The notes below the pieces were generated by a model. The model ran no database searches and had not been told where the DNA came from. It saw only the letters and a program-made list of their open reading frames with translations. Made by a program: the position numbers and the translations under genes. 64,000 nt of DNA from Eledone cirrhosa (Eukaryota): NCBI GenBank assembly GCA_964016885.1, contig OZ024742.1, forward strand, positions 284,208,001 to 284,272,000, written 5' to 3'. Below, in pieces: positions 3,643 through 64,000 of the stretch (position 1 is its first letter; each line of letters starts with the position of its first letter).

Positions 3643-4922
3643 AATTACAGGAAAAGTACCTAGCTAAAAGTAAGCCACTCTACTTGGCATTTGTCGACCT
3701 TGAGAAAGCCTTTGACAGAGTTCCACGTGCAGTAATCTGGTGGGCTCTTAGAAAACTAGGAGTAGATGAATGGCTTGTGAAAGCGGTACAAGCCATGTAT
3801 AGGGGAGCAGTCAGCAAAGTTAGGATTGGCAATGAGTATAGCGAGGAATTTAGCGTACAGGTTGGGGTCCACCAGGGCTCTGTTCTTAGCCCTCTCCTGT
3901 TCATCATAGTCCTGCAGGCAATAACGGAGGAGTTTAAGACCGGATGCCCATGGGAACTCCTGTATGCTGATGACCTCGCACTCATAGCTGAATCTATGGT
4001 AGAACTAGAGAATAAATTCCAAACCTGGAAGCAGGGACTAGAGAGAAAGGGCCTCAAAGTCAACATGACAAAGACTAAGGTCCTTATAAGTAGACGAGAA
4101 AACAGAACCCAGATCCCCTCAGGGAAATGGCCTTGCTCAGTATGTAGGAAAGGTGTAGGTAGGAACTCCATTCTTTGCCCCAAATGCAAACAATGGGTAC
4201 ACAAGAGATGTAGCGGGATCTCAGGAAGCTTAATTAAGAATGTAGGATTCACATGCAGCAGCTGTGCTGAAACAGCAAGCAAACAGCCACAGGAAACAAG
4301 TACCACCAATCTCTGGGAGGGCCCTGTAGAAACAGTAGACAGCTTCTGCTACCTAGGTGACCGAATTAGCAACGGAGGTGGGTGCTCAGAAAGTACAATA
4401 ACTAGGGTAAGAACGGGATGGAAGAAGTTTAGGGAACTACTACCACTGCTAGCTGCAAAAGGCTTCTCCCTCAGAATGAAAGGCAGACTGTATGATGCGT
4501 GTATCCGAACAGCGATGTTGCATGGTAGTGAGACCTGGGCGCTGAAGGTGGAAGACTTACGTAGATTAGAGAGAAACGAAGCCTGCATGCTCCGATGGAT
4601 GTGTAACAGTAATATACGTGAACGACAAAGCATAAATGAATTGAGAGAGAGACTGAGCATAAGAGGAATCAAATGCTGCGTGCAGGAGAGGCGGTTACGC
4701 TGGTATGGACATGTGATGCGTATGAAGGATGACAGCTGCATAAAAAGGTGCAGAGCACTAGAAGTTGATGGAAACCGCGGAGTGGGGAGACCCAAGATGA
4801 CTTGGGATGAGGTGATAAAAGCCGACCTTACCCAACTACACCTCTCAAAGTCAATGACACACGACCGTGACTTCTGGCGTCACGCAGTAATACAGGGTAC
4901 CCGACCTCCCATGGGTACATGC
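3643..4922 (+). mobile_element. 5'-truncated RTE LINE (RT C-terminal half, open frame), head-to-head with the preceding copy
   Basis: ORF 3684..4925: FVDLEKAFD, QGSVLSP, YADD, PHD-like Cys cluster, RLRWYGHV. Homology begins at LQEKYLAKSKPL (~3645). Confidence 0.95.
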
Positions 4923-7589: not shown

Positions 7590-7923
7590 ATCATCATTTC
7601 ATTTTTACGTCCCCTTTTTCCCTGCTTGCAAGGGTGGGACGGGAACTGATTTTGGCTTGGTTTCTACAGCTGGATGCCCTTCCTAACACCAACCTCATTT
7701 ACAGTGAGTGCTGGGTGCTTTTTTGCGTGGCACCTGCACGACCACTTTACAGTGGAATGATAGGGACCTCAGTCCCTATCATCTCATTTCTACAGCTGAG
7801 TAAACTGGAGCAATGTGAAATAAAGAGTCTTGCTGAAGGAAACAACACATCACCCAGTCTGAGAATTGAACTCACAACCTTTCGATTGCAAGGCCAATGC
7901 TCTAACCACTAAGCCATGTGCCT
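7590..7923 (-). mobile_element. Full-length tRNA-derived SINE with RTE 3' tail
   Basis: Reverse complement starts ggcacatggcttagtggttagagc (A box) ... gagttcaattc (B box) and ends in the RTE tail; near-identical to 53601-53905. Confidence 0.85.
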
Positions 7924-7970
7924 TCATATATATACATATATATATACATACATACATATATATATACATA

Positions 7971-8621
7971 CATGGTGGCTGCCAACTCGTTTTCGAGTAC
8001 GGCCACTACTTTATATCCATGTAGGAGAACCCCTACCGATGCGCTGAACGAGTGACTTTTTAGTCCAGCCAGCGACTTGAAAACTCTGGTACAAACACTA
8101 CACCTGTGACAATTATTGACACATAGTGCTGGGCCCATGGTACCATGTGACGACAAGTGCAGAGAGATCTCCAGATATAAAGCAATGCCTGTGCCGTGAA
8201 GCTTTTATAGTGAGCAAAGGCACTGCACAAAGCCAGTCCCACTCTCTTAACCAAGATGATATTTACCAAAAAGAAGAACAAGTCAACATCATTGGATACC
8301 ATCAGGGTTGCAGGTATTATATCAGAGTTTTCCTTCTCCTAGAATTCTGCCTTGACAAAGGCTAAGGGGTCATCTCTCCCGGTGATTTTGGATGGCCATT
8401 GACTCTTAATAGCTCCTTTGCCCTTTGACAGGTTTTGTTTTTAGTCCTGCAGGATGTCCAAAGTCACCCTCCTCACCAAGAAACCTTGGTGGGGTTGCCA
8501 GTTTAGTCGCCAACGACCCGACCATGAGACAGGTTGTACTGGGATACATGTTACCAGTAGCACCAACTGGTGACTTGACATATATACACATATATACACA
8601 TACATATATACATACATACAT

Positions 8622-8690
<69 letters not shown>

Positions 8691-8859
8691 CATATACATA
8701 CATACATACATACATACATATACACATACATACACACATATACATATATACACATACATACATACATATATATACATACACATACATATATACATATATA
8801 TATATACACATACATACATATATACATATATACACATACATACATATATACATATATAC

Positions 8860-8894
<35 letters not shown>

Positions 8895-9735
8895 TGGTGG
8901 CTGCCAACTCGTTTTCGAGTACGGCCACTACTTTATATTCATGTAGGAGAACCCCTACCGATGCGCTGAACGAGTGTGACTTTTTAGTCCAGCCAGCGAC
9001 TTGAAAACTCTGGTACAAACACTACACTTGTGACAATTATTGACACATAGTGCTTTGCCTTTGGTACCATGTGACGACAAGTGCAGAGAGATCTCCAGAT
9101 ATAAAGCAATGCCTGTGCCGTGAAGCTTTTATAGTGAGCAAAGGCACTGCACAAAGCCAGTCCCACTCTCTTAACCAAGATGATATTTACCAAAAAGAAG
9201 AACAAGTCAACATCATTGGATACCATCAGGGTTGCAGGTATTATATCAGAGTTTTCCTTCTCCTAGAATTCTGCCTTGACAAAGGCTAAGGGGTCATCTC
9301 TCCCGGTGATTTTGGATGGCCATTGACTCTTAATAGCTCCTTTGCCCTTTGACAGGTTTTGTTTTTAGTCCTGCAGGATGTCCAAAGTCACCCTCCTCAC
9401 CAAGAAACCTTGGTGGGGTTGCTAGTTTAGTCGCCAACGACCCGACCATGAAACAGGTTGTACTGGGATACATGTTACCAGTAGCACCAACTGGTGACTT
9501 GACATATATACACATATATACACATACATATATACATACATACATACACATATATATATATATATATATATACACATACATACATACATACATACATATA
9601 CATATACATACATACATACATATACACATACATACACACATATACATATATACACATACATACATACATATATATACATACACATACATATATACATATA
9701 TATATATACACATACATACATATATACATATATAC

Positions 9736-9767
<32 letters not shown>

Positions 9768-10449
9768 GGTGGCTGCCAACTCGTTTTCGAGTACGGCCAC
9801 TACTTTATATTCATGTAGGAGAACCCCTACCGATGCGCTGAACGAGTGTGACTTTTTAGTCCAGCCAGCGACTTGAAAACTCTGGTACAAACACTACACT
9901 TGTGACAATTATTGACACATAGTGCTTTGCCTTTGGTACCATGTGACGACAAGTGCAGAGAGATCTCCAGATATAAAGCAATGCCTGTGCCGTGAAGCTT
10001 TTATAGTGAGCAAAGGCACTGCACAAAGCCAGTCCCACTCTCTTAACCAAGATGATATTTATCAAAAAGAAGAACAAGTCAACATCATTGGATACCATCA
10101 GGGTTGCAGGTGTTATATCAGAGTTTTCTTTCTCCTAGAATTCTGCCTTGACAAAGGCTAAGGGGTCATCTCTCCCAGTGATTTTGGATGGCCATTGACT
10201 CTTAAGAGCTCCTTTGCCCTTTGACAGGTTTTGTTTTTAGTCCTGCAGGATGTCCAAAGTCACCCTCCTCACCAAGAAACCTTGGTGGGGTTGCCAGTTT
10301 AGTCGCCAACGACCCGACCATGAAACAGGTTGTACTGGGATACATGTTACCAGTAGCACCAAGTGGTGACCTGACATACACATATATATACATACACATA
10401 TATATATACACACACACACACATATATACACACATATATATACACACAT

Positions 10450-10488: not shown

Positions 10489-10550
10489 CATTGTTTAATA
10501 TCCACTTTCCTTGCTAACTAGGGTTGGGTATAAATAAATATGAATATATA

Positions 10551-13235
10551 TCATCATCATCATTTTACGTCCGCTTTTCCCTGCTTGCAAGGGTGGGACG
10601 GGTCTTATTCAGCACAGCATTTCTCCACTTGTCACGGTCCTTTGTCATCTCCACCGTGAGCTTCAGCAATCTGAGGTCTGTTCTCACCACCTCCGCCCAT
10701 GTTTTTTTTTCGTCTACCTCTACCACGTCTTCCTTCAACTGGCATATCCTGGCACTTCTTCACCTATCGGTCATCCTCCATGCGCATCACATGTCCATAC
10801 CACCGCCGTCTCCTCTCTAGCATGCTACATTCTATCCCTCTCAGACACAGTTTCTCTCTCAATACATCCATGCTGGGTCGTTTACGCACATTGACATTGT
10901 ACATCCAATGGAGCATGCTTGCTTCATTTCTCTCCAGCTATCGCATATCCTCTGCAGTTGCTGCCCATGTCTCACTACCATGCAGCATTACGCTCCTCAC
11001 ACAGGCATCATATAACCGGCCTTTCGTACGCAGAGAGAAACCTTTCTTCGTCAGCAGAGGAAGCAGCTCCCTTCTACTCATCAACAAATTTGTCTTAGCT
11101 AGGTTCACTCTCAGTCCTCTTGCTTCCAACTGCTGTTTCCATAGCCAGAATTTATTCTCTAGCTCCTCTACTGATTCTGCTATAAGAACCAGATCATCAG
11201 CATAGAGAAGTTCCCATGGACAGCCAGTCTTAAACTCCTCTGTTATGGCTTGGAGGTCTATAATGAACAAGAGCCGGCTGAGGACCGAACCTTGATGTAC
11301 TCCTACTTGTATCTGGAATTCCTCACTAAACTCCATTCCTACCCTGACTTTACTGACAGCACCTCTGTACAAAGTTTGCACTGTCCTCACAAGCCATTCC
11401 TCAACACCTAGTTTCCTTAGGGACCACCAGATGACAGATCGGGGTACCCTATCAAAGGCCTTCTCTGGGTCAACAAAGGTTAAGTATAATGTCTTATTCT
11501 TCTCTAAGAACCTCTCTTGTAATTGTTTCACCAAGAAGAGAGCATCTGTTGTACTTTTCTCAGGCACAAAACCAAACTGCCTCTCATCTAGTTTGACCCT
11601 TTCTCTAATTAGTTGTGCTAATATCCTTTCTGCCACTTTCATAACCTGATCCATCAGTTTTATATCTCTATAATTGCTCCTCTTCAGAGCATCCCCTTTA
11701 CCTTTGTAGCAATTTATGAGAATACTGCTGCACCAGTCTTTGGGTATGACACCACCATATATAGCCTGATTGATGATGCGTGCAACCAGTTTAATGCATA
11801 CGTCCCCTGATGCCTTCAGTATCTCAGCAACTATCCCCGACACTCCAGCACCCTTACCATTTTTCGTTTTCTTAATCCCCTCTTGGACCCTATATTTGTC
11901 AATCTCAATAGCTGGACCCTCTGTCGGATCTACTGAGGGTAATTTCTCTCTCTCCCATTCGTTCTCCACATTCATCAGTCTCTCATAATGACATTTCCAG
12001 GCCTCCTTTTTTTGATCATTCGTGACACTAAGTACACCGGCATCATTCCGGACACATTTATCTCCAACAACATCCTGATTTAGATTGACACACTGCCTTA
12101 CAATGTGGAACACCGCACGCTTCTTATCTTCCTGTCACAGAACATTGGAAAACCTCCTACTCTCTGCCTCCTTGCGTGCTAAGTACACCTGACGTCTAGC
12201 TTCTCTCTTAGCGGCTGTACATCTTTCTCTACTCCCACCCTTTTTCCAAGCCTTCCATGCTAGTCTTTTGTCTCTAATGGCCCTATCTACTGTGCTGTTC
12301 CACCACCAGGCCACTCTCTGTCTGGTTGGAGCTCTGCCTCAGCCACAAGTTTCATCAGTAGCCTGCAGTAAGTTGTCACGTAAGAAATTCCAGTTACTAT
12401 CTGTCATTCGACTCTAAATAATCTTCTTTTTCGTCATACACATCTTGAAGGGCTTTCCTAAATTTGTATTTTAGTGAAAGGTCTTTTAGCTTCCAGACCT
12501 TTCTTCTCCACACCTTCCTGTATGTCTCATTCCATCTCTTGCTTACTGAGATATCACTAACGACTAACCTATGCTGTGGGGTACATTCTTTCCCAGGATA
12601 TGCCTTGGTATTTGACACCATCTGCTTGTCCCGCTGCCTAACTAGTAAGAAGTCAACCTGGCTTATGTGCTCGCCTGATTTGTAGGTTATTAGGTGGTTG
12701 GCAGGTTTCTGGAAGTTAGTGTTGCAAATAGTCAGTGTACTTGCATCACAAAATTCAAGAAGTCTTACTCGTTCTTCATTTCTTGAGCCGTAACCGTGCC
12801 CACCATGTACCCCAGTGTAACCATCCTGGAGCTGTCCAACATGACTATAGAAGTCCCCTGCTAGCATAACGATGTCTCCGTTCTCTGTCATTGCGGCTGT
12901 TTGTAAAAGTTGCTCGTAAAAGCAGTCTTTCTCTTCTTTGCCTAGGCCTGCTTGGGAGCATAGGCAGAGATGATTGTCAGTAGTCTCCTGCCTACAACTA
13001 TCTAAGCTTAATTATTCGATTATTAACTCGAACCACCTCTATTGTCTTATTGATCCATCTCTCAGCCAGGAAAATGCCTACTCCCCCTAACCCATCATCC
13101 TTACCTACCTAGAAAAGCTTATAGCTAAGATGTTTGCCTGCGACTAGTCTCGCAGAGGCACTTCTCCATCTCACCTCTTGCACGCAGCACACATCCACAT
13201 GCCTTCTCTCCAGCATCTCCACTATTTCACCAGAT
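10551..13235 (-). mobile_element. Degenerate near-full-length RTE LINE with internal deletion of the PHD-like region
   Basis: ORF pieces 13109..13294 (VQEVRW), 12397..12891 (GDF, VDFLL, PQHR), 10938..12113 (RT, YADD); 3' tail (GAT)n at 10551; junction NLAKT-NLLMSR-RELLPLL near 11070-11095. Confidence 0.92.
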
Positions 13236-13778
13236 ATTTTTGTTGTTCCTATATATTTGTTGCTGTGCTCATAATTGTTTTGGCATTGATACACTAGTTG
13301 GATGCCCTTCCTAACACCAGTGCGACCTTACAGCATGGACTGGGTACTTTTATTCGTGCAACCAGCACTAGAGAGGATGTCTTACTGGACTCATGGGCCC
13401 TCTCTATCCCTCCATTTTACAGCATGGTCATAACAAAAAAAAAACAAAAAGAAACAAAAAAAAAAACACCACTTATTGACACTCACGGCACTCACACACC
13501 AACACTCATGCATACAAACACACACGCCACTCACACACCAACACTCATGCATTCAAACACACACACACCACTCACACACACACACACATACATATATTAC
13601 CGTCAGTACTGATACAAGATCATATATATATATATATATATGTAAATGCAAAAGTTCTATTTAAGGTTGTTGGGATACAACAAGTAAATATTTTTGTAAC
13701 TGATATAAAGCACTCGACAAGTTTTTGGAGTAGATATACGATATTAATAAATGGAAACTATATTTATAAAACCATATT

Positions 13779-13843
13779 TATTTCATTATACATATTTCAG
13801 GGATACCATATTAAATTATGGTATGCCTTCATCAGACAAAATA
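13779..13843 (-). ncRNA. Candidate minimal type I hammerhead ribozyme (Penelope-type), left arm
   Basis: Reverse complement: tattttgt-CTGATGA-aggcataccata atttaa tatggtatccct-GAAA-tatgtata-atgaaata; core and 11/12-bp stem II visible. Confidence 0.6.
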
Positions 13844-16800
13844 CAATATATAACAGTTTTATAAATAGCTTTGACGTACCCTTTTAAAATACAACCATTA
13901 CTTTCGGAGGCTGTCTGGATAGTGAATTGTTTATATTGTTTTAATAAGTTGTAGTGTTAAGCACAATTAGAAAAAGACAGAGATAAAGAAAAAGAAAAAA
14001 GACGGAGAGAGAGAAAAGAACAAAGACGGAGAGAGAGAAAGAAAGAAAACCTGGAGAAATATCGGAGAGAGAAATGTATGGAGAAAAGAAAGAGATAAAT
14101 AAAGATAGGAGGAAATAAAAAATAAAAATAAAAAAAATTAAAAAAAAGGAAGAAATAAGAAAAACAAAGGAAAGCAACAGAGAGATATCAAGTCATCATA
14201 CAGAGAGAAAAACTCAAGAGAGAGAAATACTATAGAGAGAGAGAGAGGGGGGGGGGGGGGGCAATGAAAACTTTACGTCATGTCATATTAAGTTGAGTTA
14301 ACAATTTATATGAAATGAATAATAAAAATATAAGTATCAATATTCATGAATGGGACATAGATATATAATATGAGAAATTAAACATTGATCAATAATGACT
14401 ATATGTTTAGTTTAGAAACTTGAGATCAATATATCAAAATCTGAGTTCAAAATGTACTCTTGCTATAGAGATCAGTATTTTATGCAAAGACATAGAAATA
14501 CATATGTATATATATATACATATAGATACGCACGTCCTGAAAATAGAAATTATGTTTACTCAAGCCAACAATATAGCCATACAAAACGTAAATGATTTCT
14601 CTTAATCACTGCTATACATTCTTTGTGTTATAAAAATTTCACAGTATATATATACAAATATATACGATTAACATTCATGTCCTCATATATACGATTACCA
14701 TTCATGTGTCTAATATTATGCATATCTGCAATATACCTCCCAACCACATAGATATATACACATACATATGTATAAATAAATATTTGCGTGCGTTGTCACG
14801 CATCACTCATGTATATATACAGACATATATAGACACAAAAAAAATCTATAACACTTTTTATGCATGTTAATATACACATATGCATTTGCATAGAGATAAT
14901 CAAATATCAATATTTCACTAAAGGATTATAAACATAACCACAACAAAATAAATTTAAAATACCAAAGGAGTATATTTTGGAAATGCAGCTATATCAGTAT
15001 AGACAAAAGAAATCTATAATATCAAAGCATTAAATATCTTTAAAACACTATAGAGTATCTTAAGTTAAAATAATATGTTTTATATATTTAGTATAGAAAT
15101 TTATCCTACGTATATCTCAATCAAGATATTGAAAGGGTAGACATATGAAAGTTATGAGAAGCTATCATAATCAAAACAAATAAATAAAAATAATTTAAAA
15201 GATTTTAAAAAAACCCAATGATTCTACAGATAACCTTATATTTAGTATAGAAATTTACCTTACGTATATTTTATTTAATACATTGGAAGTATAGACATTT
15301 TAGAGTAGTTTATTATATCCTTGTTTATATTTAGGAAGAAAGTTTAAAAAGAAAAAGGTGAAGGAATCTAATGATTTATCGACAGGTTCCATATATTAAC
15401 TAAACTATATATGGAACCTGTCGATAAATCATTAGATTCCTTCACCTTTTTCTTTTTAAACTTTCTTCCTAAATATAAACAAGGATATAATAAACTACTC
15501 TAAAATGTCTATACTTCCAATGTATTAAATAAAATATACGTAAGGTAAATTTCTATACTAAATATAAGGTTATCTGTAGAATCATTGGGTTTTTTTTAAA
15601 TCTTTTAAATTAATTTTATTTATTTGTTTTGATTATGATAGCTTCTCATAACTTTCATATGTCTACCCTTTCAATATCTTGATTGAGATATACGTAGGAT
15701 AAATTTCTATACTAAATATATAAAACATATTTTAACTTTAGATACTCTATAGTGTTTTAAAGATATTTAATGCTTTGATATTATAGATTTCTTTTGTCTA
15801 TACTGATATAGCTGCATTTCCAAAATATACTCCTTTGGTATTTTAAATTTATTTTGTTGTGGTTATGTTTATAATCCTTTAGTGAAATATTGATATTTGA
15901 TTATCTCTATGCAAATGCATATGTGTATATTAACATGCATAAAAAGTGTTATAGATTTTTTTTGTGTCTATATATGTCTGTATATATACATGAGTGATGC
16001 GTGACGACGCACGCAAATATTTATTTATACATATGTATGTGTATATATCTATGTGGTTGGGAGGTATATTGCAGATATGCATAATATTAGACACATGAAT
16101 GGTAATCGTATATATGAGGACATGAATGTTAATCGTATATATTTGTATATATATACTGTGAAATTTTTATAACACAAAGAATGTATAGCAGTGATTAAGA
16201 GAAATCATTTACGTTTTGTATGGCTATATTGTTGGCTTGAGTAAACATAATTTCTATTTTCAGGACGTGCGTATCTATATGTATATATATATACATATGT
16301 ATTTCTATGTCTTTGCATAAAATACTGATCTCTATAGCAAGAGTACATTTTGAACTCAGATTTTGATATATTGATCTCAAGTTTCTAAACTAAACATATA
16401 GTCATTATTGATCAATGTTTAATTTCTCAAATTATATATCTATGTCCCATTCATGAATATTGATACTTATATTTTTATTATTCATTTCATATAAATTGTT
16501 AACTCAACTTAATATGACATGACGTAAAGTTTCATTGCCCCCCCCTCTCTCTCTCTCTCTATAGTATTTCTCTCTCTTGAGTTTTTCTCTCTGTATGATG
16601 ACTTGATATCTCTCTGTTGCTTTCCTTTGTTTTTCTTATTTCTTCCTTTTCTTTCTTTTTTCTTTTTTCTTTTTTATTTCCTCCTATCTTTATTTATCTC
16701 TTTCTTTTCTCCATACATTTCTCTCTCCGATATTTCTCCAGGTTTTCTTTCTTTCTCTCTCTCCGTCTTTGTTCTTTTCTCTCTCTCCGTCTTTTTTCTT

Positions 16801-16948
16801 TTTCTTTATCTCCGTCTTTTTCTAATTGTGCTTAACACTACAACTTATTAAAACAATATAAACAATTCACTATCCAGACAGCCTCCGAAAGTAATGGTTG
16901 TATTTTAAAAGGGTACGTCAAAGCTATTTATAAAACTGTTATATATTG

Positions 16949-17013
16949 TATTTTGTCTGATGAAGGTATACCATAATTTAATATGGTATCCCTGAAATAT
17001 GTATAATGAAATA
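16949..17013 (+). ncRNA. Candidate minimal type I hammerhead ribozyme (Penelope-type), right arm
   Basis: Stem I 16949-16956 pairs with 17006-17013 (2 G-U); CTGATGA 16957-16963; stem II 16964-16993 (11/12 pairs, 6-nt loop); GAAA 16994-16997; near-palindromic stem III ATATGTAT; predicted AUA cleavage after 17005. Confidence 0.62.
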
Positions 17014-17052
17014 AATATGGTTTTATAAATATAGTTTCCATTTATTAATATC

Positions 17053-17087
<35 letters not shown>

Positions 17088-18118
17088 TATATATATATAT
17101 ATGTATTATATACACACACACACACACCTACATACACGCATATATGCATACACACACATAATACATGCACACGTCAATAGTTCAATCAATATATTTATTA
17201 TTTCAAGGTCATCCTATTTAACTTTACCCTTTACCAGAGTTGGACTAGATAGTGGTGGTGGTGGTGGTGGTGGTATCTGAGGATTTACATACAGGAGAGG
17301 GCTGTTATCTCGTCATATTGTGGAAGGTCTGTGTGTTAATTTGTTACATAATGAATGCATTTTCTAATAATTCATTATATAGTGAGGGTGTGTTAGTTGA
17401 ATATATGTGGAATACAATTTTATAGTGAGAGACATATTTCCCGATTTTTAGAATAGGTACACTATACCCTTGTATGTCCTTAAAGGCAAATACAAAGGTT
17501 GACATCAGAAAGGTCATCCAGTCATAAAATATTATCTCAAACCACCCCATCCAACCACATGCCAGCATGGAAAAGTGGTCATGAAAACGGTGATGATATA
17601 TATATACCATATATACTCAAATATAAGCCGACCCACCCAATTTATGTCGGAGAAATGGGCAAAAATCCAAACCATGTTTATTAGCTGAAGCAGCTAATCA
17701 ATATATTTTTAGATGGAAATCTCAGGTGTATAAAATATATTAATGACACTTTAATATTTTGATGTTTAAAATGTTTTAAGTTTTGTTTAGTATATAGTTT
17801 CTATTTCACAACTTCATTATATAATGCTTTTTTTTTTACTATTTCATCCATTTTATAAAGTTTCAACAAGTTTCTTGAATTTTTGTTTACTTCCAGCTAT
17901 ACAAATGCTGGGGTAGTTGAAAGAAAAGATTGAGTAAGAGAACATTGTATAGAGATTCATAGAGTAGAAGAGGAAGAGAGACAACAAGAGAGGGAGAGAG
18001 GGGGGGAGACAGAGCAAGAAAAAGAGAGAACAAGAACAATAACACACAAATAAGAAATAAGATTTCAATCTTATGTAAGATTGAAAGAAAAAGTATTAAG
18101 TCAGAGAAAAACAGTCAG

Positions 18119-19327: not shown

Positions 19328-21567
19328 AGGAAAGCCGTTCAAGATGTGTATGACGAAAAAGAAGATGATTTAGAGTCGTAGATAATAACTGGAATTTCTT
19401 ACGTGACAACTTACTGCAGGCTACTGATGAAACTTGTGGCTGGAGCAGAGCTCCAACCAGACAGAGAGTGACCTGGTGGTGGACCAGCACAGTAGATAGA
19501 GCCATTAGAGACAAAAGACTAGCATGGAAAAAGGGTGGGAGTAGAGAAGTATATACAGCCGCTAAGAGAGAAGCTAGACGTCAGGTGTACTTAGCACGCA
19601 GGGAGGCTGAGAGTAGGTGGTTTGCCAATGTTCTGCAACGGGAAAATCAGAGGTATGCAGTGTTCCACATTGCAAAGCAGTGTGTCAATGCAAATCAGGA
19701 TGTTGTTGGAGATAAATGTGTCCGGAATGATGCCGGTGTACTTAGTGTCACAAATGATCAAAAAAAGGAGGCCTGGAAATGTCATTATGAGAGACTGATG
19801 AATGTGGAGAACGAATGGGAGAGAGAGAAATTACCCTCAGTAGATCCGACAGAGGGTCCAGCTATTGAGATTGACAAATATAGGGTCCAAGAGGGGATTA
19901 AGAAAATGAAAAATGGCAAGGGTGCTGGAGTGTCGGGGATAGTTGCTGAGATACTGAAGGCATCAGGGGACGTAGGCACTAAACTGGTTGCACGCATCAT
20001 CAATCAGGCTATATATGGTGGTGTCATATCCAAAGACTGGTGCAGCAGTATTCTCATAAATTGCTACAAAGGTAAAGGGGATGCTCTGAAGAGGAGCAAT
20101 TATAGGGGTATAAAACTGATGGATCAGGTTATGAAAGTGGCAGAAAGGATATTAGCACAACTAATTAGAGAAAGGGTCAAACTAGATGAGATGCAGTTTG
20201 GTTTTGTGCCTGGGAAAAGTACAACAGATGCCCTCTTCTTGGCGAGTCAATTACAAGAGAGGTTCTTAGAGAAGAATAAGCCACTATACTTAGCCTTTGT
20301 TGACCCAGAGAAGGCCTTTGATAGGGTACCCCGATCTGTCATCTGGTGGTCCCTAAGGAAACTAGGTGTTGAGGAATGGCGTGTGAGGACAGTGCAAACT
20401 TTGTACAGAGGTGCTGTCAGTAAAGTCAGGGTAGGAATGGAGTTTAGTGAGGAATTCCAGATACAAGTAGGAGTACATCAAGGTTCGGTCCTCAGCCGGC
20501 TCTTGTTCATTATAGTCCTCCAAGCCATAACAGAGGAATTTAAGACTGGCTGTGTATGGGAACTTCTCTATGCTGACGATCTGGTTCTTATAGCAGAATC
20601 AGTAGAGGTGCTAGAGAATAAATTCTGGCTATGGAAACAGCATTTGGAAGCAAGAGGACTGAGAGTGAACCTAGCTAAGACAAAAGTGTTGATTAGTAGA
20701 AAAGAGGACAAAACTGATTCCATCAGGGAAATGGCCATGTCCAATATGCAGAAAAGGAACTGGCATAAATTCTATAAAATGCACACAATGCAGATCCTGG
20801 GTACACAAGAGATGTAGTGGGATAGCATGAAAACTAACAGGTAGGGAGAAATATGTATGCAGTAGATGTACAGGGAAATTAGACAGTAGAAGTCGCATTG
20901 AGAGACACATTTTTCAAATGCAGACAGGTGCTATAGAAGTGGTGGATAGCTTCCGGTACCTAGGAGATCAGATTAGTATGGGAGGCGAGTGTTCCGAGGC
21001 CATAGTATCTAGAATAAGGACGGGTTGGAAGAAGTTTAGGGAGCTGCTTCCTCTGCTGACAAAGAAGGGTTTCTCGCTGCATACGAAAGGCCGGTTATAT
21101 GATACCTGTGTGAGGAGCGTGATGCTGCATGGTAATGAGACATTGGCAACAACTGCAGAGGATATGCGACGGCTGGTGAGAAATGAAGCAAGCATGCTCT
21201 GTTGGATGTGTAATGTCAATGTGTGTGAACGACCCAGCATGGATGTGTTGAGAGAGAAACTGTGTCTGAGAGGGATAGAATGTAGTGTGCGAGAGAGGAG
21301 ACTGTGGTGGTATGGACATGTGATGCGCATGGAGGATGACCGATAGGTGAAGAAGTGTCAGGAAATGCCAGTTGAAGGAAGACGTGGTAGAGGTAGACCA
21401 TGAAAAACATGGGTGGAGGTGATGAGAACAGACCGCAGATTGCTGAAGCTCACGGTGGAGATGACAAAGGACCGTGACAAGTGGAGAGATGCTGTGCTGA
21501 ATAAGACCCGTCCCACCCTTGCAAGCAGGGAAAAGCGGACGTAAAATGATGATGATGATGATGATGA
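19328..21567 (+). mobile_element. 5'-truncated degenerate RTE LINE, inverted twin of 10551-13235
   Basis: ORFs 19468..20817 and 20918..21346 (RT, frameshift near 20715); tail cccacccttgcaagcagggaaaagcggacgtaaaa(tga)n; shares FVDPEK and VLSRLL variants with the 10551-13235 copy. Confidence 0.93.
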
Positions 21568-35236: not shown

Positions 35237-37349
35237 CTGTAGACAACAATAATAACAATAATCATAATGATTTCTGATTTAGGCACAAAGCCAATAATTT
35301 TGGGGGAGGGAAAGTTGATTAAATTAACCCCAGTGCATTACTGGTGCTTTATTTTATCGACCCCGTAAAGATGAAAAACAAAACTAACTTCGGCGGGATT
35401 TGAACTCAGAACGTAAAGGAACGTAACTCTATGCTGCAAAGCATGGTGTTCGACGCTCTACCGATACTGCCAACAATAATTATAATGATGATTTCTCACA
35501 TAGGAGAATAGAAGGGATCAGATTTAGAGGATGGGAGAGGAATAATCAATAAGATCTGGTACTTTATTTTACTGATGCTGGAAAGATGAAAAACAAAGTT
35601 AACTTCAGCAGGATTTTAAATCTGAATGTAAAGGGAACCAACTTAATGCTGCTAGGCATCTTGTTAGTCACTTGCCAAACGAAGCGCCGGGGAGACTCTT
35701 TAGCTGTGTCAAAGACATGACAACCACCCTAGTGTTGGTGATTTACACGATAAACATACCCAGGACACTCTGTAAAATGCTTGTTGATAATAAGGGTATT
35801 CAGTTATAGAAAACCTCCCAAACAAAGGGTTGGGAGGACTCTTCAGCTGTGTCAAAAGACATAACAATCTCCCTAGTACTTGTGCCATGATAAAATTCAC
35901 TTGGTAGAACAAGGGAAACTTTTTTGTAAGCATGAGATATGCTCCCGGCCTGCCTGAACACCCAGTACAGAACAGAAACATTAATGAGAGAGACAGACCC
36001 CCTGGCCCATCTGTGAGGACAGTAGCTTCACCAAAGACTAACTTCGTCTGCAGCGACCTGTCCAATCCTTACTAGCAGAGGAAACTGATGTTAATTGATG
36101 ATGATGATTCTATCAACTATACCTACCCCCTAGCAAAAGTTTCAAGGAGGATCCATCAACTCAGTGAAAGGGAGTCTGTCTAAGACCTGGGCTACTACTA
36201 AGGCTAACTAGGCAGCTGCTATGACACAAACCTAAAAAAAAAGTACATTACTGAACCTTAAAAAAATATTCTATACAATTAAATTAAATATATAATTTCC
36301 TGCAATAAATAAATCACAAAGCATTTTTGCCATGTTGCAGCATTGTGGAAATATCAAAAACAGTAGAGGTTGTATGGTGTTATGATTTGGCATGGGTGAA
36401 TTTGGACTATAAAGTAGAAAATGCAGGCCTAGTAATTTTCTTAATGGGACCAGAGCAAGTGTTTGATACACTGGCTTGTCAGTGTGCCAAACAGTAAATT
36501 GAAATTATTTTATTTGGGAGAATGAGATGCACATTGTAGGAATTTCCTAGGGCGCTAAATACTCAGGCCCTGGTCATGTGTAAAGTTATGGCATATAAAT
36601 ATGTAGGTTTAACTGGCCTCCTTCAAGGCTGTATCTCATAGGAAGTTTCTCAGTTGTTTTAATCACAGGGGACCCCATCCTATCATGAAAAGCAATATGA
36701 AATGAACTGTCATGCTCAAGAACACAACACGCTGTCTGGTCCAGGAATCGAACCCATGACTTTAGGATGTTTCCAACATCCTAACCACCAGGTCATGTGC
36801 TTTCTCAGTGCTCATAGTGTACTTACAAGTAACTGAACAGAATAAAAGAACTAGAATTTGAAGTGAGTATGCCCTCCACAACATCATAATCCCATACCAA
36901 CTGGCTCCACCTCTGATCTGGACATAATGGAATACCACAAAGCAATGTGTTCATCTCAAAACTGATTCTGCCACCTCAACAATCTTTAATCTTGATTTTT
37001 TTTAATAAGTAGGTACAAGGTCACAAAATTTAGGTAGATGTATAGTCGATTATATCGGCCGTGGTACTTTACTGGTACTTTATTATATCAATCCATAGAA
37101 GGATGAAATGCAAAATTAACCTCAGAGGAATTTGAACTCAGAATAACAATAATAATAATTTCTTACATCGATACAAGGTCAGCAAATTTAGGGCATGGGA
37201 AAGTTGATTAAACCAAGTCCCAGTACTTGGCTGGTATTTATCGATACCCGGAAGGAAATGCAAAGTTGACCTTGGCGAGATTTGAACTAAACTCAGTACA
37301 ATAATAACAATAATTGTTTCTACAATAATAACAATAATGATATAAATAC

Positions 37350-39313
37350 CTCATTGACATTTGACGTGGAATGGAGCCTCCAAAATACTCCTCACTTTGG
37401 AAACGGAGATGGTAAGTTTCCATGTAAGAATAGGTCTCTTCGAATACTTCTTCAACATCCAAAGCTATCCGTTCAATTGGAGAAGTGAAAGATGTTGGCA
37501 AGGCAGCATCCTGTTTAAGATCTACAACCATTTTGTAACGGCTGGGTACTTCAATACACAGTTGGCTCGAAGTTGCCATTCCTGCCTGGTTTTCTTGACA
37601 GTTAGACACAACTACGACAGAGTCTCGTACAAAATTTTCCAAAGTTAGTATCGTGTTCGATGCTACACTCGGATAGAAATCCCCTGCTTCTACCTCCATG
37701 GGTAATTTTGGCCTACGGTAAAATATTTCGGATACATACCACCTCTCTCTTTCTTCCTTCGCAATCATTTCAACTAAACCGATTTCTAAATCCACAGGTA
37801 ACTTCAGCTTTTCGTATTTTCCCCGAGAATTTAGCTTCTCGCATTTCAGCACTTTACACTCCATTTTATAATCGCCGCTTCCGAATTTATAGACAATTGT
37901 CTGGAAGTTTGGAATTCGGATGATATCTCCCAACCTCAGGCTAATTGGTTTCGGGTAGTCCGTAGCTACATCTTCCAACACCTGTAACTCACAGCCAGCC
38001 TTACAAATACTTAATTCGGAGACATTCTGAAATCTCCGTGGCAACACAGAGAGCCTTTTATAAAGATTAGGTCCGATAATGAAAAATCTGTCATCAGTGC
38101 GGGCAAGAATTTTATCGATGTGTTCCACTCTTCGAAAAATTACTTCGGATTTTGGTTTAATGTAATTGACGAATTCGTGAGGAAGATCAGGATAAGACAC
38201 AATTTGGGCTAGAACTGGGAAGAAAATAAGGGGTCGGGTGTATTCTGATGCCACTTCCCACAATGTACGGCGGTGTTTGTAATTTTTAGGTTGTTCATAA
38301 TTTGGGATGGATATACATTTAACAAGTATGTCTGAACTGACAGGAATGAGCCATCTTACGTCTGAGTCATTGTTCTGTGAAGGATCAGTGACTGAACTAA
38401 CTGTAGGGTCACTGGTAAGATAAACCTGGACAAAAATCTCAGGTATGTCCATATAAATAATATTCCGTCCGGATAATTTCGCAGAATGAAAACTATCCCG
38501 TGGATGGTGAAAATTGGATTCAGACTGGTTGTTTCCAGTCGTGTCATTCGTGTCGTTGAAAAATGGATCGTCCGTGAACACTTTCATATTGGTATCATTT
38601 CCCACATGAATGATGCTATCTTTGTAGTCACTGTAGTCAACCAACTCATCGGCTTGCCAAAGATATCTGGGCATGCGATTCGCTTCAAGAAGCTGCTCCA
38701 CAGTGTACGTGGTACTAGAATCAACAACATAAGAAAAATCCCCCTTACATGACCAAGGTAGTTCCATAATACGGCCGTCTTGGTGTTGGCATTGTAAATA
38801 TTTCCCGAAAAATCCATCACGAACGATTTTCAGAAACTTGAATGTGTCTCCGGCCTCGAAGTTATTTTTTTGTATTTCTCCGTCGAAGTTTTGTTGCGAG
38901 AAACACGATGAACAGTTAGCTTTAAATAATGGCGGTGATACCGTTAGCAAGTCGTTTATTGTTTCATAGATTACATCTGGCTCCTGTTCGTCGTGTGGCG
39001 GTGAAAGAACAACATATCGAGCTGGGTAGTCAATGGGTACTTCGATGGTATCGTGGTCCGTGAGCGGAGTCTGTGCGGCTGGATCACAGTTTGTGTCCCA
39101 CTCTAATTCATCGTCTGCCTTACAAGGTGTCAGCAATACTCTAGGAATAACAGTTTTATGCAAGCGCAGCCACTGACCTTCTTCCACGGCACGATTCGTC
39201 TGACGCTTGCCTCGTGACACAACTGAAACGGTTTGTGGAAGATCAAAATTGTCCAGGAAACTTTTCAGTGAAAACACCTCGTTATTTTTTAACGACTCTT
39301 CCGAGTCCGCCAT
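37350..39313 (-). CDS. Large coding exon of a tandem CABIT-domain protein (Themis/GAREM/serrano-like)
   Basis: ATG at 39313 (MADSEES); two repeats of a CABIT-like pattern (SLKSF..LPQTVSV..G.WLRLH..VPIDY..F.AGD.F..LQC..LP..C.G.F..YTVEQL..MPR, and ..FPVLAQ..LRLGD..LKC..KLP..G.VE..VSEI..LP); donor atgag|gtattt at 37350. Domain call is by pattern recognition, not HMM. Confidence 0.85.
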
Positions 39314-40577
39314 TTTTCTTGTTGTCAATTATTTAGCCAAGCTTTTTTTTTATACTCACCTGTCGCATCAGACAGTAAAGCTGACTGACGGAACAACTCT
39401 TACTATGGATGGCCGCTACGGCAACAATCAACAAGTGTTAACATTTTTTCTTTTTACAGGTGTGCTCTTTTTATCAAATTTATTTGCATTCCTACTTGTC
39501 AGCCTACCTACCTACTACCTTATATATATAACAAGTTAGCTGTCTAGTGAGCCGGTGGCCAGATAAATTGCGATAGAGGTGACATAGAGAAAACAAATTA
39601 AAACGAGAAAATAGTCAAATATACACATTAATGTATGTCTAAAAAAATATATTTACATATTCTCATATATAACAAAACTCTCACATACATAGATACACAA
39701 ATAAAGATATTCATACATATAATTTTTATTTCTTAATCGGGAAGAACAATGCTTACAACCTTTTTTTTTTTTTCCTGGACCTCTGAAATTGATGGGAGGG
39801 AAGAAGGTATCCTCAAACTGATGACTTGCCCCGAATGCTTTCACCAGAGTAAAGTACGTAAAAGTACCCCACATGCTATGTGGTGTTTGGGCGATAGATT
39901 AAGTGTTCACCCAAGTAGGTCACAGCAGGATCTGAAGTCAGAAAACAGAGCTGGAATAAATACTGCAAGCATCCTTTCCGAAGCATTTCATCGTGGCACC
40001 AGCACTATCGAGTGTATTATGTGCATTCTATCATGGCACCACCAAATAATAATCAAACTCTTTAAATCATTATAGTATAGTCTCCAGCCCACACTGTAAA
40101 GTGGTTGTAATGGCGACACGGCAAAAAGGCACCCAGTCCACACTGTAAAGTGGTCGTGTAGACGTCACGGCAAAAAGCACCCAGTACTCCTTATAAATAA
40201 GGTTGGCGCTAGGAAGGGCATCCAGCTGTAGAAACCAACCCAAAACCGGTTCTGTATCAGAAAGACATGATCACCTGACCTGGCATTGATCACAACAGGA
40301 CAACTCGTCTAACCCATGCCAGCATGGAAACATGGACGTTAAACGGTGATTATAATGATCATTCTTCAGTTGGTATCCCAGTAATTTGTCCAGCTGCAGC
40401 TTTCTCATTCATTATAATTTCAAAATAACTTGATATGCTTTAGATAATAACTCAAGGAATCCAAGGAATTGTGTTACATCTTGTTGATATTATAATCATT
40501 TTATGTGTCATGTATACTGTATAAACTGTGTCACAGATGACTGATTCCCAACCTCTTGCAAGAAACCTCCTATTTAT

Positions 40578-42659: not shown

Positions 42660-44998
42660 ATACAGGTTGTCACCCCAAAAATGTATACCCACTTTGATTG
42701 CCTATACATGCATTATTTGTTAGGATGGTGTATACATTTTTAGGGACCCCGCAAGGTGGTCGTGGAGGTGCCACGGCAAAAAAGCACCCAGCCCACACTG
42801 TAAAGTGGACGTGTAGGCGCCACGAAAAAGCACCCAGCACTCACTGTAAATGAGGTTGGTGTTAGGAAGGGCATCCAGCTGTAGAAATCAAGCCAGATCA
42901 GTTCCTGTATGAGCAAGGCATGGTCAGCCGACCAGACACTGCCCACAACAGGACAACCCGTCTAACCCATGCTAGCGTGGAAGAACGGACGTAAAACGGT
43001 GATGATGATGATGATGATGATGATATAGTGTCCCCGAAAAATGTATACACACTTTGATTACCTGTACAGGCAAAATATATATTAGAATGATGTATACATT
43101 TTTAGGGACCCCGGTATATATATATATATATATGGTGTCCCCGAAAAATGTATACACACTTTGATTATCTGTACAGGCAATATATATATTAGAATGGTGT
43201 ATACATTTTTAGGGACCCCGGTATATATATATATATGGTGTCCCCGAAAAATGTATACACACTTTGATTACCTGTACAGGCAATATATATATATTAGAAT
43301 GGTGTATACATTTTTAGGGACACCGGTATATATATATATATATATATATATATGGTGTCCCCGAAAAATGTATACACACTTTGATTGCCTGTACAGGCAA
43401 TATATATATTAGAATGGTGTATACATTTTTAGGGACACCGGTATATATATATATATGGTGTCCCGGAAAAATGTATACACACTTTGATTACCTGTACAGG
43501 CAATATATATATTAGAATGGTGTATACATTTTTAGGGACCCCGGTATATATATATGGTGTCCCCGAAAAATGTATACACACTTTGATTACCTGTACAGGC
43601 AATATATATATTAGAATGGTGTATACATTTTTAGGGACCCCGGTATATATATATATATATGGTGTCCCCGAAAAATGTATACACACTTTGATTACCTGTA
43701 CAGGCAATATATATATATTAGAATGGTGTATACATTTTTAGGGACACCGGTATATATATATATGGTGTCACGGAAAAATGTATACACACTTTGATTACCT
43801 GTACAGGCAATATATATATTAGAATGGTGTATACATTTTTAGGGACACCGGTATATATATATATATATGGTGCCCCGGAAAAATGTATACACACTTTGAT
43901 TACCTGTACAGGCAATATATATATTAGAATGGTGTATACATTTTTAGGGACCCCGGTATATATATACATTTTTCAGGACCCAGGTATATATATATATGGT
44001 TTCCCCGAAAAATGTATACACACTTTGATTACCTGTACAGGCAATATATATATTAGAATGGTGTATACATTTTTAGGGATCCCGGTATATATATATATAT
44101 ATATGGTGTCCCCGAAAAATGTATACATACTTTGATTATCTGTACAGGCAATATATATATTAGAATGGTGTATACATTTTTAGGGACCTCCGGTATATAT
44201 ATATATATATATATGGTGTCCCCGAAAAATGTATACACACTTTGATTACCTGTAGAGGCAATATATATATTATAATGGTGTATACATTTTTAGGGACACC
44301 GGTATATATATATATGGTGTCCCGGAAAAATGTATACACACTTTGATTACCTGTACAGGCAATATATATATTAGAATGGTGTATACATTTTTAGGGACAC
44401 CTGTATATATATATATATATATATATATGGTGTCCCGGAAAAATGTATACACACTTTGATTACCTGTACAACCAATATATATATATATTAGAATGGTGTA
44501 TACATTTTTCAGGACCCAGGTATATATATATATATATATGGTGTCCCCGAAAAATGTATACACACTTTGATTGCCTGTACAGGCAATATATATATTAGAA
44601 TGGTGTATACATTTTTAGGGACACCGGTATATATATATATATGGTGTCCCGGAAAAATGTATACACACTTTGATTGCCTGTACAGGCAATATATATATTA
44701 GAATGGTGTATACATTTTTCAGGACCCAGGTATATATATATATTGTTTCCCCGAAAAATGTATACACACTTTGATTACCTGTACAGGCAATATATATATT
44801 TGAAGGGTGTATACATTTTTAGGGACCCCGGTATATATATATATATATATATGGTGTCCCCGAAAAATGTATACACACTTTGATTACCTGTACAGGCAAT
44901 ATATATATTAGAATGGTGTATACATATTTAGGGACACCGGTATATATATATATATATGATGTCCCGGAAAAATGTATACACACTTTGATTACCTGTAC
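42660..44998. repeat. Tandem array of ~20 Tc1/mariner-type mini-MITE units (~85 bp) separated by variable (TA)n
   Basis: Unit ggtgtccccgaaaaatgtatacac-actttgattacctgtacaggcaatatatatattagaatg-gtgtatacatttttagggacacc has ~23-bp TIRs; starts near 42664, 43028, 43134, 43237 ... 44853, 44958. Confidence 0.92.
42749..43023 (+). mobile_element. Young RTE-tailed SINE-like element inserted between array units 1 and 2
   Basis: Appears identical to 4955-5226, including the 5' start. Confidence 0.85.
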
Positions 44999-62800: not shown

Positions 62801-63733
62801 AGTATCAGTCTAGCAGAATTGTTTGATAATGATGTGGCTAATAGATGGGATCCAATGCAGTATCTGATCTGGATCTGTGCATTATAAGTTTAAATTGTAC
62901 CTCCTGTTAGGAGTTGTGACCATCAGATAATATCAGCATTGGAAAGATCACAAGAAACATAGTTGCTTTTGTCTGACCAAAAGATAAGCTTGTTTCCTTT
63001 CTTTTTTAGGCATGTATTGTGTATACTACCTATACAGTTATGTATTAATTCTGCATGCGTATATATGTGTGTGTGTGTGTGTATATATATACACACACAC
63101 ACAAATAAACCTTATACATATATAGAATAAATGCAAGCAATCATTGGAATGCCCTATGTGTATAAAAGGCACTTGGAAAACAGCCAACAATAAACAAAAC
63201 ATCTAGTAGACAAGACCACCAGATTCCAATCTCATAAAAATTACATTCGTAAAAACCGAGCCAATTGAACTAAATGTCTATGTTAGAGCTAAGATATCCC
63301 CCTAAAATCCCTACCTCAGACATCATTGATATATATACTATGTAACAGGTACCATGTAACATACACTATATTGTATTACAGTCTACAGTAGCTATGCACA
63401 ACACTGTACTTTGTGAGTGTGCTTTGTTTTTCTTACTTCTTTTTCAGATTTCAGTCATTAGTTTGTACCATACTAGAGTATGATGCTAATTATAGTAAAA
63501 TCCTTAGAGTGATGTTCCAGTAAAGCTCCAATCCAATGATTGATATCTGTAAAAGTATTTTAAAAAAACAACTTTATCAATCCTTACCTGATTGACATCA
63601 TAGGGATCATCAACGTTGCCGGTCTGGGCAAGAAGTCGGAAAGCCAAAATACCATTCTGAGAGGCATTCTGGTGCCACCTCTTAGGTCCAATGCAACTAT
63701 TAGCTACATCATTATCAAAAGATTCTTGTAAAT
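56767..63733 (-). CDS. ptc: Patched (Hedgehog receptor), 3' part; ten coding exons, gene continues beyond the window end
   Basis: Spliced translation gives GIINPKGFYNYLSAW, QYAQLPFYL, GLPNYPRGVPFTYWEQY, GIKLSAVPAVTLVIAVGIGMEF, EFDFI, LNGL..LPVLLS..GPP, DISLSTITEE, TRVKATATVKVEVH. All junctions GT-AG with consistent phases. Confidence 0.95.
57362..57458 (-). CDS. ptc: patched C-tail exon (NFPYNTP...ATVKVEVHTPLP)
   Basis: tttcag acceptor, cag|gtaagc donor, 97 nt. Confidence 0.88.
58254..58514 (-). CDS. ptc: patched C-tail exon (IVPKD...PPTPEP...FCDN)
   Basis: Weak AAG acceptor (ttaaaag), aat|gtaagt donor, 261 nt in frame. Confidence 0.85.
58656..58755 (-). CDS. ptc: patched exon (YIFNVL...GPPGE), last TM helix
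   Basis: ttcag acceptor, gag|gtaagc donor, 100 nt. Confidence 0.93.
59512..59654 (-). CDS. ptc: patched exon (GFITSVGSR...EFDFII)
   Basis: ttacag acceptor, aa|gtaagt donor, 143 nt. Confidence 0.93.
59748..59875. repeat. 19-bp intronic minisatellite, about 7 units
   Basis: cagctatgatcagtgttat repeats inside a patched intron. Confidence 0.85.
59978..60115 (-). CDS. ptc: patched exon (VVILL...KLSAVPAV...HVCI)
   Basis: ttccag acceptor, ata|gtaagt donor, 138 nt. Confidence 0.93.
60682..60873 (-). CDS. ptc: patched exon (HIRSIC...FTYWEQY...LALIV)
   Basis: ttacag acceptor, gtg|gtgagt donor, 192 nt. Confidence 0.93.
61681..61769 (-). CDS. ptc: patched exon (FKSHQIQYAQLPFYL...TVR)
   Basis: tttcag acceptor, cga|gtaagt donor, 89 nt. 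Confidence 0.92.
62370..62538 (-). CDS. ptc: patched exon (VHKVRLV...DVSLE)
   Basis: ttgcag acceptor, aag|gtgagc donor, 169 nt. Confidence 0.92.
63588..63733 (-). CDS. ptc: patched exon (DLQESFD...PYDVNQ)
   Basis: tttcag acceptor, cag|gtaagg donor, 146 nt, phase 1 to 0. Confidence 0.9.
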
Positions 63734-64000
63734 CTGAAATTAAGAGGTAAAAAACAATCAGTAAATGATAAAAACTGCCCATGATTTTCAAATAATTAAG
63801 AATATTTGGAGCGATTTAGTAATATAACTAACTTTCTTGGTGTTTGGAGCATAACTCAACAAAGGTTGTTAAATTAAATTATGTAGGTTTAAATGTTAAC
63901 CCCTTAGACTTTAAACCGGCCATATTCTCTCACCTCTTTCTGTTCAAATCAGTTATAACCAGCCACTCATATTGATGTTAAGGTATTGTTCTCAAAATAA

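What the first reader, a model, noticed from the sequence alone, without database searches (positions are those of the whole stretch)
13734..17058. 3.3-kb near-perfect palindrome capped at both ends by hammerhead ribozyme motifs
Seen: two ~1.66-kb inverted arms around a 10-nt loop, no credible ORF, flanked by (TA)n tracts. About 45 nt inside each outer end is a complete hammerhead core (CTGATGA, 11/12-bp stem II, GAAA, near-palindromic ATATGTAT stem III, 8-bp stem I), oriented outward. Known: minimal type I hammerheads with palindromic stem III are typical of Penelope-like elements and non-autonomous retrozymes and act as dimers. Inference: this may be a non-coding foldback retro-unit whose transcript from either strand forms a ~1.6-kb dsRNA hairpin with a ribozyme at its 3' end, a potential ADAR/Dicer substrate. 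In a full hairpin the ribozyme would be masked by the opposite arm, a built-in switch. Substitutions between arms (e.g. aggcatacc vs aggtatacc; cgttgtcac vs cgtcgtcac) argue against a pure fold-back read artefact but do not exclude it.
Basis: partly seen in the sequence, partly recalled or inferred. Interest (0 to 1): 0.85.

Follow-up and report, generated by a model that had tools for sequence, protein, structure and literature searches.

The report
Head-to-head Hydra-clade Penelope retroelement insertion
The 3.3-kb palindrome is two mirror-image copies of the non-coding 3' end of an abundant Penelope-like jumping gene, a published and ordinary insertion pattern, although the near-universal "one tailed arm, one tailless arm" rule among its relatives suggests both arms are likely copied from one RNA primed from both DNA strands.

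Summary
The palindrome and both hammerhead (HHR) motifs are in the sequence as described. It is not a free-standing non-coding unit. Each arm is the 3' UTR of a protein-coding Penelope-like element (PLE), cut 19-27 nt after the stop codon. An intact copy elsewhere encodes a 745-aa telomerase-like RT plus GIY-YIG-type endonuclease with the Hydra-clade motifs. Head-to-head 5'-truncated PLE copies with HHRs and a one-sided tail are published, also for Hydra. The scan noted the same architecture in another genome (e1-7789743). This genome holds about 39,800 related HHR cores, with compensatory changes in stem II.

What may be new: among resolved units, 65 of 67 (24 of 26 not selected for a tail) and 21 of 21 in sister subfamilies have exactly one tailed and one tailless arm. 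The arms share lineage variants, and often neither arm is contained in the other. This argues against fold-back and favours priming at two fixed RNA sites from both target strands. No reads or RNA data could be examined. Verdict: new member of a known kind, interest 0.3.

The parts
13622..13646 (.). Left (TA)n target flank, with a short interruption next to the tail
13647..13733 (-). 87-nt 'tail' from site A to site B. In tandem copies this sequence continues to the ATG about 43 nt further on. Present on the left arm only
13734..15404 (-). Left arm: 5'-truncated 3' UTR of the Hydra-clade PLE, starting 19 nt after the ORF stop of the reference copy
13779..13843 (-). Minimal type I hammerhead of the left arm, predicted cleavage at 13787
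15405..15406 (.). 2-nt insert at the head-to-head junction
15407..17058 (+). Right arm: 5'-truncated 3' UTR starting 27 nt after the stop and ending at site A (TATAT 17054-17058), no tail
16867..16871 (+). Inr-like TCACT at the upstream edge of the family's 5'-truncation hotspot; inferred transcription start (mirror 13921-13925)
   Evidence: motif named in PMC3846280 passage
16949..17013 (+). Minimal type I hammerhead of the right arm, predicted cleavage after 17005
17059..17112 (.). Right (TA)n target flank

Best explanation
This is one insertion of a Hydra-clade Penelope-like retrotransposon, made of two 5'-truncated copies of its 3' UTR joined head-to-head in a (TA)n tract, and both arms were likely reverse-transcribed from one RNA primed from both nicked target strands. 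Shown: element identity, structure, the one-tail rule and shared variants. Inferred steps: (1) the RT-endonuclease, possibly a dimer, nicks both strands of (TA)n. (2) One 3' end primes at site B (end of the tail) and the other at site A about 90 nt upstream; both sites are UAUAU motifs matching the target. (3) Both cDNAs run toward the RNA 5' end, the trailing RT displacing the other cDNA or stalling at it. (4) The two cDNA ends are joined through microhomology or small inserts and filled in. In this copy both cDNAs stopped within 8 nt of each other, which gives the near-perfect palindrome. The HHRs are the ordinary pseudo-LTR ribozymes, copied intact, so the template was likely uncleaved RNA.
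For: Identity: other copies run on from the palindrome centre into an RT/GIY-YIG-type ORF. L113 holds an intact 745-aa ORF whose model (pLDDT 82) best matches telomerase RT, with the Hydra motifs. One-tail rule: 65 AB, 1 AA, 1 BB and 22 unresolved of 89 junctions; 24 of 26 resolved among units not selected for a tail, p about 5e-6; 26 of 28 pairs of exact ends in genome order on C1 (the AA pair proved to be two AB units); sister subfamilies 21 of 21 resolved, 1 more at a locus edge. Same source: arms discordant at 0-6 of 18-55 units per variable column against 15-62% expected; the window's arms share 15 uncommon variants. Not fold-back: in 28 of 55 non-tandem AB units the tailless arm reaches more than 20 nt further 5' than the tailed arm. 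Joining: 29 of 41 insert-free junctions overlap by 2 nt or more, against 19% by chance. In vitro, an anole PLE nicks and extends both strands and starts RT at two sites that delimit the tail (PMC11167929).
Against: Shared variants cannot separate one RNA molecule from two RNAs of the same source locus held in an asymmetric dimer. For this copy alone, fold-back of the tailed cDNA fits equally well, since the tailed arm is 8 nt longer. Symmetric truncation outside the hotspot is not significantly enriched (3 vs 1.7 expected, p = 0.23). Some 3' ends have no inverted partner: 4 of 20 unresolved or solo and 5 of 30. One BB unit stands (L244). [quoted passage not shown] Junction overlaps come from BLAST ends and may be slightly inflated. 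No read-level check of this locus exists.
Confidence: 0.6

Rival explanations
1. Same PLE insertion, but made by a protein dimer carrying two RNAs from the same source locus, one committed to site A and the other to site B. The RNAs could be paired through the palindromic HHR stem III.
For: Explains the AB rule and independent arm lengths without strand displacement. Stem III stays palindromic across subfamilies. A few units are discordant at a lineage-variable column (6 of 55 at the most variable one). Dimer folding of PLE HHRs is proposed in PMC4209133.
Against: Needs an unexplained asymmetry. Short tailed arms cluster near tail length (8 of 55 at 57-98 nt, then none until 141), as expected if a cDNA stalls at the second primer on the same RNA; this is suggestive only. 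The predicted stem III duplex is weak (-2.2 kcal/mol).
Confidence: 0.2
2. Same PLE insertion, made by cDNA fold-back or self-priming (or an antisense template, as proposed in PMC3846280), the second strand ending at site A.
For: Fits this copy: near-symmetric arms, tailed arm longer, 2-nt insert. Symmetric units are somewhat enriched overall (10 of 54 vs 4.9 expected, p about 0.01). Self-priming is the published reading of such palindromes.
Against: Cannot make the 28 of 55 units where the tailless arm has extra 5' sequence and the other arm has the tail.
Confidence: 0.15
3. One reading: a non-coding fold-back retro-unit that is amplified as a palindrome and works as a dsRNA/ribozyme switch.
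For: Long perfect hairpin potential and intact HHRs.
Against: The arms are the UTR of a coding PLE. All 89 junction pairs are distinct. Arm lengths range from about 40 nt to over 4 kb.
Confidence: 0.03
4. Assembly or fold-back-read artefact.
For: Arms are 99% identical, and no read check was possible.
Against: The tail is on one end only, as in the family rule. The flanks differ. The arms differ by 12 substitutions, each arm carrying some of the uncommon letters, two of them CpG-type transitions. 89 analogous junctions lie across many contigs.
Confidence: 0.02

Closest known systems
Hydra clade of C-terminal EN+ Penelope-like elements (Craig et al. 2021, PMC8557442; e.g. Hydra-1_Obim, Penelope-13_HM)
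   Same: RW(K/R), DKT, CxCX5C linker, no CCHH, C-terminal CxxC/CxH, (TA)n targets, type I HHR near the 3' end. Penelope-13_HM is listed with a 5'-truncated inverted copy and an HHR on both strands.
   Different: Unit about 3.95 kb with a 1.6-kb 3' UTR, against generally <3 kb. Tail about 90 nt, against 30-40 nt for PLEs in general. The HHR differs from that of Hydra-1_Obim, so this looks like a different family. About 39,800 related HHR cores in the genome.
Inverted pLTR/tail structure of Penelope (PMC3846280; PMC8557442 Fig. 2 legend)
   Same: Head-to-head inverted 5'-truncated copies with junction palindromes; tail often at only one end.
   Different: Here the one-tail pattern is counted as nearly strict, and the arm geometry argues against the published self-priming reading.
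PAc (Poseidon, Anolis) in vitro TPRT (PMC11167929)
   Same: Two internal RT start sites that delimit the tail; both target strands cut and extended; uncleaved RNA is the template.
   Different: PAc sites lie inside the ORF, about 30-40 nt apart, without homology to the target. Here they lie upstream of the ATG, about 90 nt apart, each at a TATAT motif matching (TA)n. The parts read do not link the two sites to inverted insertions.
L1 twin priming (recalled, not read here)
   Same: Second target strand primes on the same RNA, giving an inversion joined by microhomology.
   Different: In L1 the inverted piece is non-overlapping upstream sequence. Here both arms overlap and start at two fixed sites.
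Non-LTR retrozymes (PMC7229834, abstract start only; bioRxiv 2026.07.22.740005, first fifth)
   Same: Type I HHR, PLE ancestry.
   Different: Retrozymes are short head-to-tail tandem repeats without a coding body. This is head-to-head and part of a coding element.

Membership tests
EN+ Penelope-like element | Single ORF with telomerase-like RT | tested here: met
   745-aa ORF with GLYRDD in L113. The top 8 Foldseek hits are all telomerase RT. Pfam gave no RT hit for P0003 and only a weak one for a homolog.
EN+ Penelope-like element | C-terminal GIY-YIG endonuclease | tested here: inconclusive
   VVY...YVG aligns with VIY...YIG of the homologs. No profile or fold hit specific to this domain was obtained.
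EN+ Penelope-like element | Partial-tandem pLTRs, inverted 5'-truncated copy, tail at one end | tested here: met
EN+ Penelope-like element | Type I HHR in the pLTR | tested here: met
   41 distinct copies: 96.9% of cells paired, 3 stem II pairs with two-sided changes in 40 cells, above shuffles and slid controls. These 41 were picked by a core-containing pattern. In one search, 77 of 87 ends anchored outside the core carried a full HHR pattern.
EN+ Penelope-like element | Ribozyme self-cleavage | not testable with these tools
   The active monomer fold scores -8.9 against an MFE of -24.3 kcal/mol. The genomic test for copies starting at the cleavage site was inconclusive.
Hydra clade | RWK and DKT motifs | tested here: met
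   RWR in several family copies (RSR in P0003), RWK/RWR in homologs, SDKT in P0003; definition.
Hydra clade | CxCX5C linker, no CCHH in EN, C-terminal CxxC and CxH | tested here: met
   CNCRNKSNC; no Cys pair between VVY and YVG; CDLC and CRH.
Hydra clade | Insertion into (TA)n | tested here: met
   2331 exact A ends and 3545 exact B ends run into TATATA; flanks.
Hydra clade | Short element (<3 kb, described as 'generally') | tested here: not met
   Unit is 3951 bp. A tendency in the paper, not a diagnostic.
Hydra clade | Phylogenetic placement with reference Hydra RTs | not tested
   Reference proteins were only read in the supplement and compared by eye; no tree was built.
Neptune clade | CX2-5CxxC linker and CCHH in EN | tested here: not met
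Non-LTR retrozyme | Short non-coding head-to-tail tandem units | tested here: not met
   Head-to-head arms contiguous with an ORF in other copies.

The most novel reading that the evidence does not exclude
The inverted, one-tailed insertions that typify Penelope-like elements are made by obligate twin priming: one RNA, two fixed UAUAU start sites about 90 nt apart, each annealed to one nicked strand of a (TA)n target, with strand displacement. The many short palindromes would be run-offs at a pLTR transcription start near window 16867. This Hydra lineage has thereby seeded some 40,000 hammerheads, many as head-to-head pairs able to form dsRNA, through a likely cephalopod genome.
Probability: 0.5. 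Interest if true: 0.6.

Novelty: new member of a known kind. Interest (0 to 1): 0.3.

Why it matters
The locus itself is an ordinary transposon remnant. The family statistics matter more. How PLEs build tandem and inverted structures is named as an open question in PMC8557442. Here a young family with an intact ORF (L113), two mapped end sites and a near-strict one-tail rule gives a direct prediction for the existing in vitro assay. Many head-to-head insertions could also supply long dsRNA in a lineage known for heavy A-to-I editing (recalled); this is untested.

Tried and rejected
Rfam: no hammerhead match, only microsatellite and hairpin noise. Pfam on the element's proteins: no informative hit. 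PDB sequence searches: none. Neptune membership, my first guess, was rejected on motifs. Sequencing runs: no RNA holder listed, which is no evidence on expression; no read layout was obtained, so long-read support, coverage, RNA ends and editing stay open. A 63-nt own-genome DNA query returned nothing and was uninformative. Test for copies beginning at the HHR cleavage site (633 matches vs 317 upstream and 11,818 downstream control): confounded by sister-subfamily variants, so inconclusive, with no sharp peak seen. One search had stem I one column off; one search is the valid count. The promoter scan is bacterial and irrelevant. Excess symmetry outside the hotspot was not significant. Literature searches for the mechanism: 'twin priming'+'Penelope' (3 listings, none on PLE mechanism by title), a head-to-head/tail/target-primed search (0 papers) and a broader one (5 listings). 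Subscription papers and bioRxiv supplements were not visible, so the model may be in print.

Full report
OBSERVATION. The arms 13734-15396 and 15407-17058 are inverted repeats with 12 substitutions in 1647 aligned positions and a few indels. Each carries an outward-facing type I hammerhead (16949-17013 on +, 13779-13843 on -), with predicted cleavage after 17005 and at 13787. Rfam does not detect them. Two corrections apply. An 87-nt extension (13647-13733) belongs to the element on the left only. Eight of the ten loop bases continue the element, leaving a 2-nt insert.

WHAT IT IS. The window lies at G000:C3:284208001 in a 3.0-Gb genome. It is likely an octopod, an inference from the only named homolog among the 120 listed, an Argonauta hians protein at 39%, and from recalled SINE look-alikes. 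The arm is a large repeat family: 2182 and 1410 first-look candidates, 40 scored each. Of 30 copies examined upstream of the palindrome centre, most share sequence for a further kilobase or more, and this sequence is an RT-endonuclease ORF. Among 20 long copies, L113 has an intact 745-aa ORF. The unit is 3951 bp: ATG at 44, stop at 2281, 3' UTR, HHR, end site A, about 90 nt of tail, end site B. The window's arms begin 19 and 27 nt after the stop, hence no ORF. An AlphaFold model from 17 aligned sequences (pLDDT 82) has telomerase RT as its top 8 matches. The motifs RW(K/R), DKT, GLYRDD, CxCX5C, no CCHH and terminal CxxC/CxH are those that define the Hydra clade (PMC8557442 section 11). Its supplement lists an Octopus Hydra family, and Penelope-13_HM with an inverted 5'-truncated copy and HHRs on both strands. 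No tree was built, and the endonuclease domain had no profile hit of its own.

THE RIBOZYME. Sister subfamilies surfaced. An alignment of 41 distinct HHRs (39 of the 47 found plus the window's two, with gapped or rearranged rows left out) keeps 96.9% of cells paired. Three stem II pairs change on both sides in 40 cells, stem I alternates G-U and A-U, and stem III stays palindromic. Relatedness inflates cell counts, so read this as three or so events. A degenerate core-plus-stem pattern matches 39,769 times against 1 in the control. Activity is untested. The monomer active fold is far from the MFE, PLE HHRs cleave poorly in vitro (PMC4209133), and my genomic test for copies starting at the cleavage site was inconclusive.

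THE ARCHITECTURE IS THE FAMILY NORM. In 119 merged segments I found 89 head-to-head junctions, all with distinct breakpoint pairs, and arms from about 40 nt to over 4 kb. Ends fall at site A (tailless) or site B (tailed), both at a TATAT motif running into (TA)n; there are 2331 and 3545 exact ends genome-wide. Units were 65 AB, 1 AA, 1 BB and 22 unresolved. Among those not selected for a tail, 24 of 26 resolved were AB (19 unresolved); among tail-selected ones, 34 of 34 (1 unresolved). In genome order on the first 114 Mb of C1, 26 of 28 head-to-head pairs were AB against 45% expected; the AA pair was two AB units. Of the first 20 tailed ends on C1 lacking an exact tailless partner in that list, 15 were AB, 1 BB (the same BB pair) and 4 solo or unresolved (read by eye). 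Sister subfamilies were 21 of 21 AB, with 1 more at a locus edge. These samples overlap in part and should not be summed.

MECHANISM (inferred). The arms of a unit share lineage variants: 2.1% divergence within units against 4.4% between, with discordance of 0-6 units of 18-55 per column against 15-62% expected. The window's arms share 15 uncommon letters. In 28 of 55 non-tandem AB units the tailless arm reaches further 5', in 16 the tailed arm does, and 11 are within 20 nt. In the 28, neither arm can be a copy of the other, so fold-back fails. Junctions show microhomology (29 of 41 insert-free ones overlap by 2 nt or more, against 19% by chance) or short inserts, some copied from nearby element sequence. 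An anole PLE nicks and extends both target strands, starts RT at two sites delimiting the tail and uses uncleaved RNA (PMC11167929). The simplest model is twin priming on one RNA at sites B and A, with strand displacement and end joining. Two RNAs in an asymmetric dimer remain possible, and for this single copy fold-back also fits. 5' ends pile up at unit positions 3661-3696 (25 of 70 ends in the tail-selected sample; seen again), next to an Inr-like TCACT (window 16867-71), which suggests run-off at a pLTR transcription start. BLAST ends are imprecise and no RNA data exist here. Symmetric arms are enriched overall (10 of 54 vs 4.9) but not outside this hotspot (3 vs 1.7).

ARTEFACT. No reads could be examined, and no RNA run was listed. 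The one-sided tail, different flanks, arm-specific substitutions including two CpG-type transitions, and the many analogous units make an artefact unlikely.

COMPARISON AND NOVELTY. Inverted 5'-truncated copies and a tail often at one end are described in PMC8557442. Head-to-head palindromes, read as self-priming, are described in PMC3846280. HHR pairs 100-700 bp apart on opposite strands are described in PMC4209133. An earlier scan note on another genome reached the same reading (e1-7789743; unchecked here). This is therefore a new member of a known kind, unusual in its 1.6-kb UTR, roughly 90-nt tail and copy number. I did not find the twin-priming explanation in three searches, but subscription journals are missing from the library.

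What I saw of each paper. PMC8557442: abstract, sections 3 and 11, passages, supplement part 2 and search hits. PMC11167929: parts 1-2 of 4 and passages. PMC4209133: parts 1-2 of 4. PMC3846280: passages and Discussion. bioRxiv 2026.07.22.740005: part 1 of 5. PMC7229834: listing only. L1 twin priming and cephalopod RNA editing are recalled.

VERDICT. Real and largely explained. Interest 0.3. The novel case (single-RNA twin priming as the general source of PLE inversions) has probability about 0.5 and interest 0.6 if true.

Noticed in passing
window 10550-12459 and 19328-21559: Two 94-95% identical LINE copies (RVT_1; RTE-like by recall) sit head-to-head on either side of the palindrome, not centred on it; apparently unrelated to it.
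   Followed up: partly
window 43023-44998: About 19 copies of a 103-bp tandem unit with internal inverted halves and TA spacers.
   Followed up: no
window 7926-10147: Three direct repeats of about 900 bp (97-98%) with CA/TA microsatellites; a weak tRNA-like hit at 7855-7918 suggests a SINE.
   Followed up: no
window 37238-39328 (-): 696-aa open frame with CABIT domains.
   Followed up: partly
window 58161-63815 (-): Exon-like frames resembling Patched (recalled); the one exon tested had no Pfam hit.
   Followed up: partly
L122:2-1120 (-): A second RT ORF with an SDKG motif (Pfam RVT_1), probably another PLE clade, right beside a Hydra copy.
   Followed up: partly
P0003 residues about 475-520 and 585-600 (L113): Asparagine-rich, low-confidence inserts in the ORF, recalling the N-rich inserts of Adineta Penelopes.
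   Followed up: no
G000:C2:338324032-338456061: Four identical truncated copies about 44 kb apart, likely a segmental tandem duplication.
   Followed up: no
L134, L147, L262: New insertions cluster next to older ones, probably because each insertion leaves (TA)n flanks as targets.
   Followed up: partly
window about 16911-16918: A splice-donor-like motif lies between the putative start and the HHR; PLEs often carry a 5' intron. Not tested.
   Followed up: no
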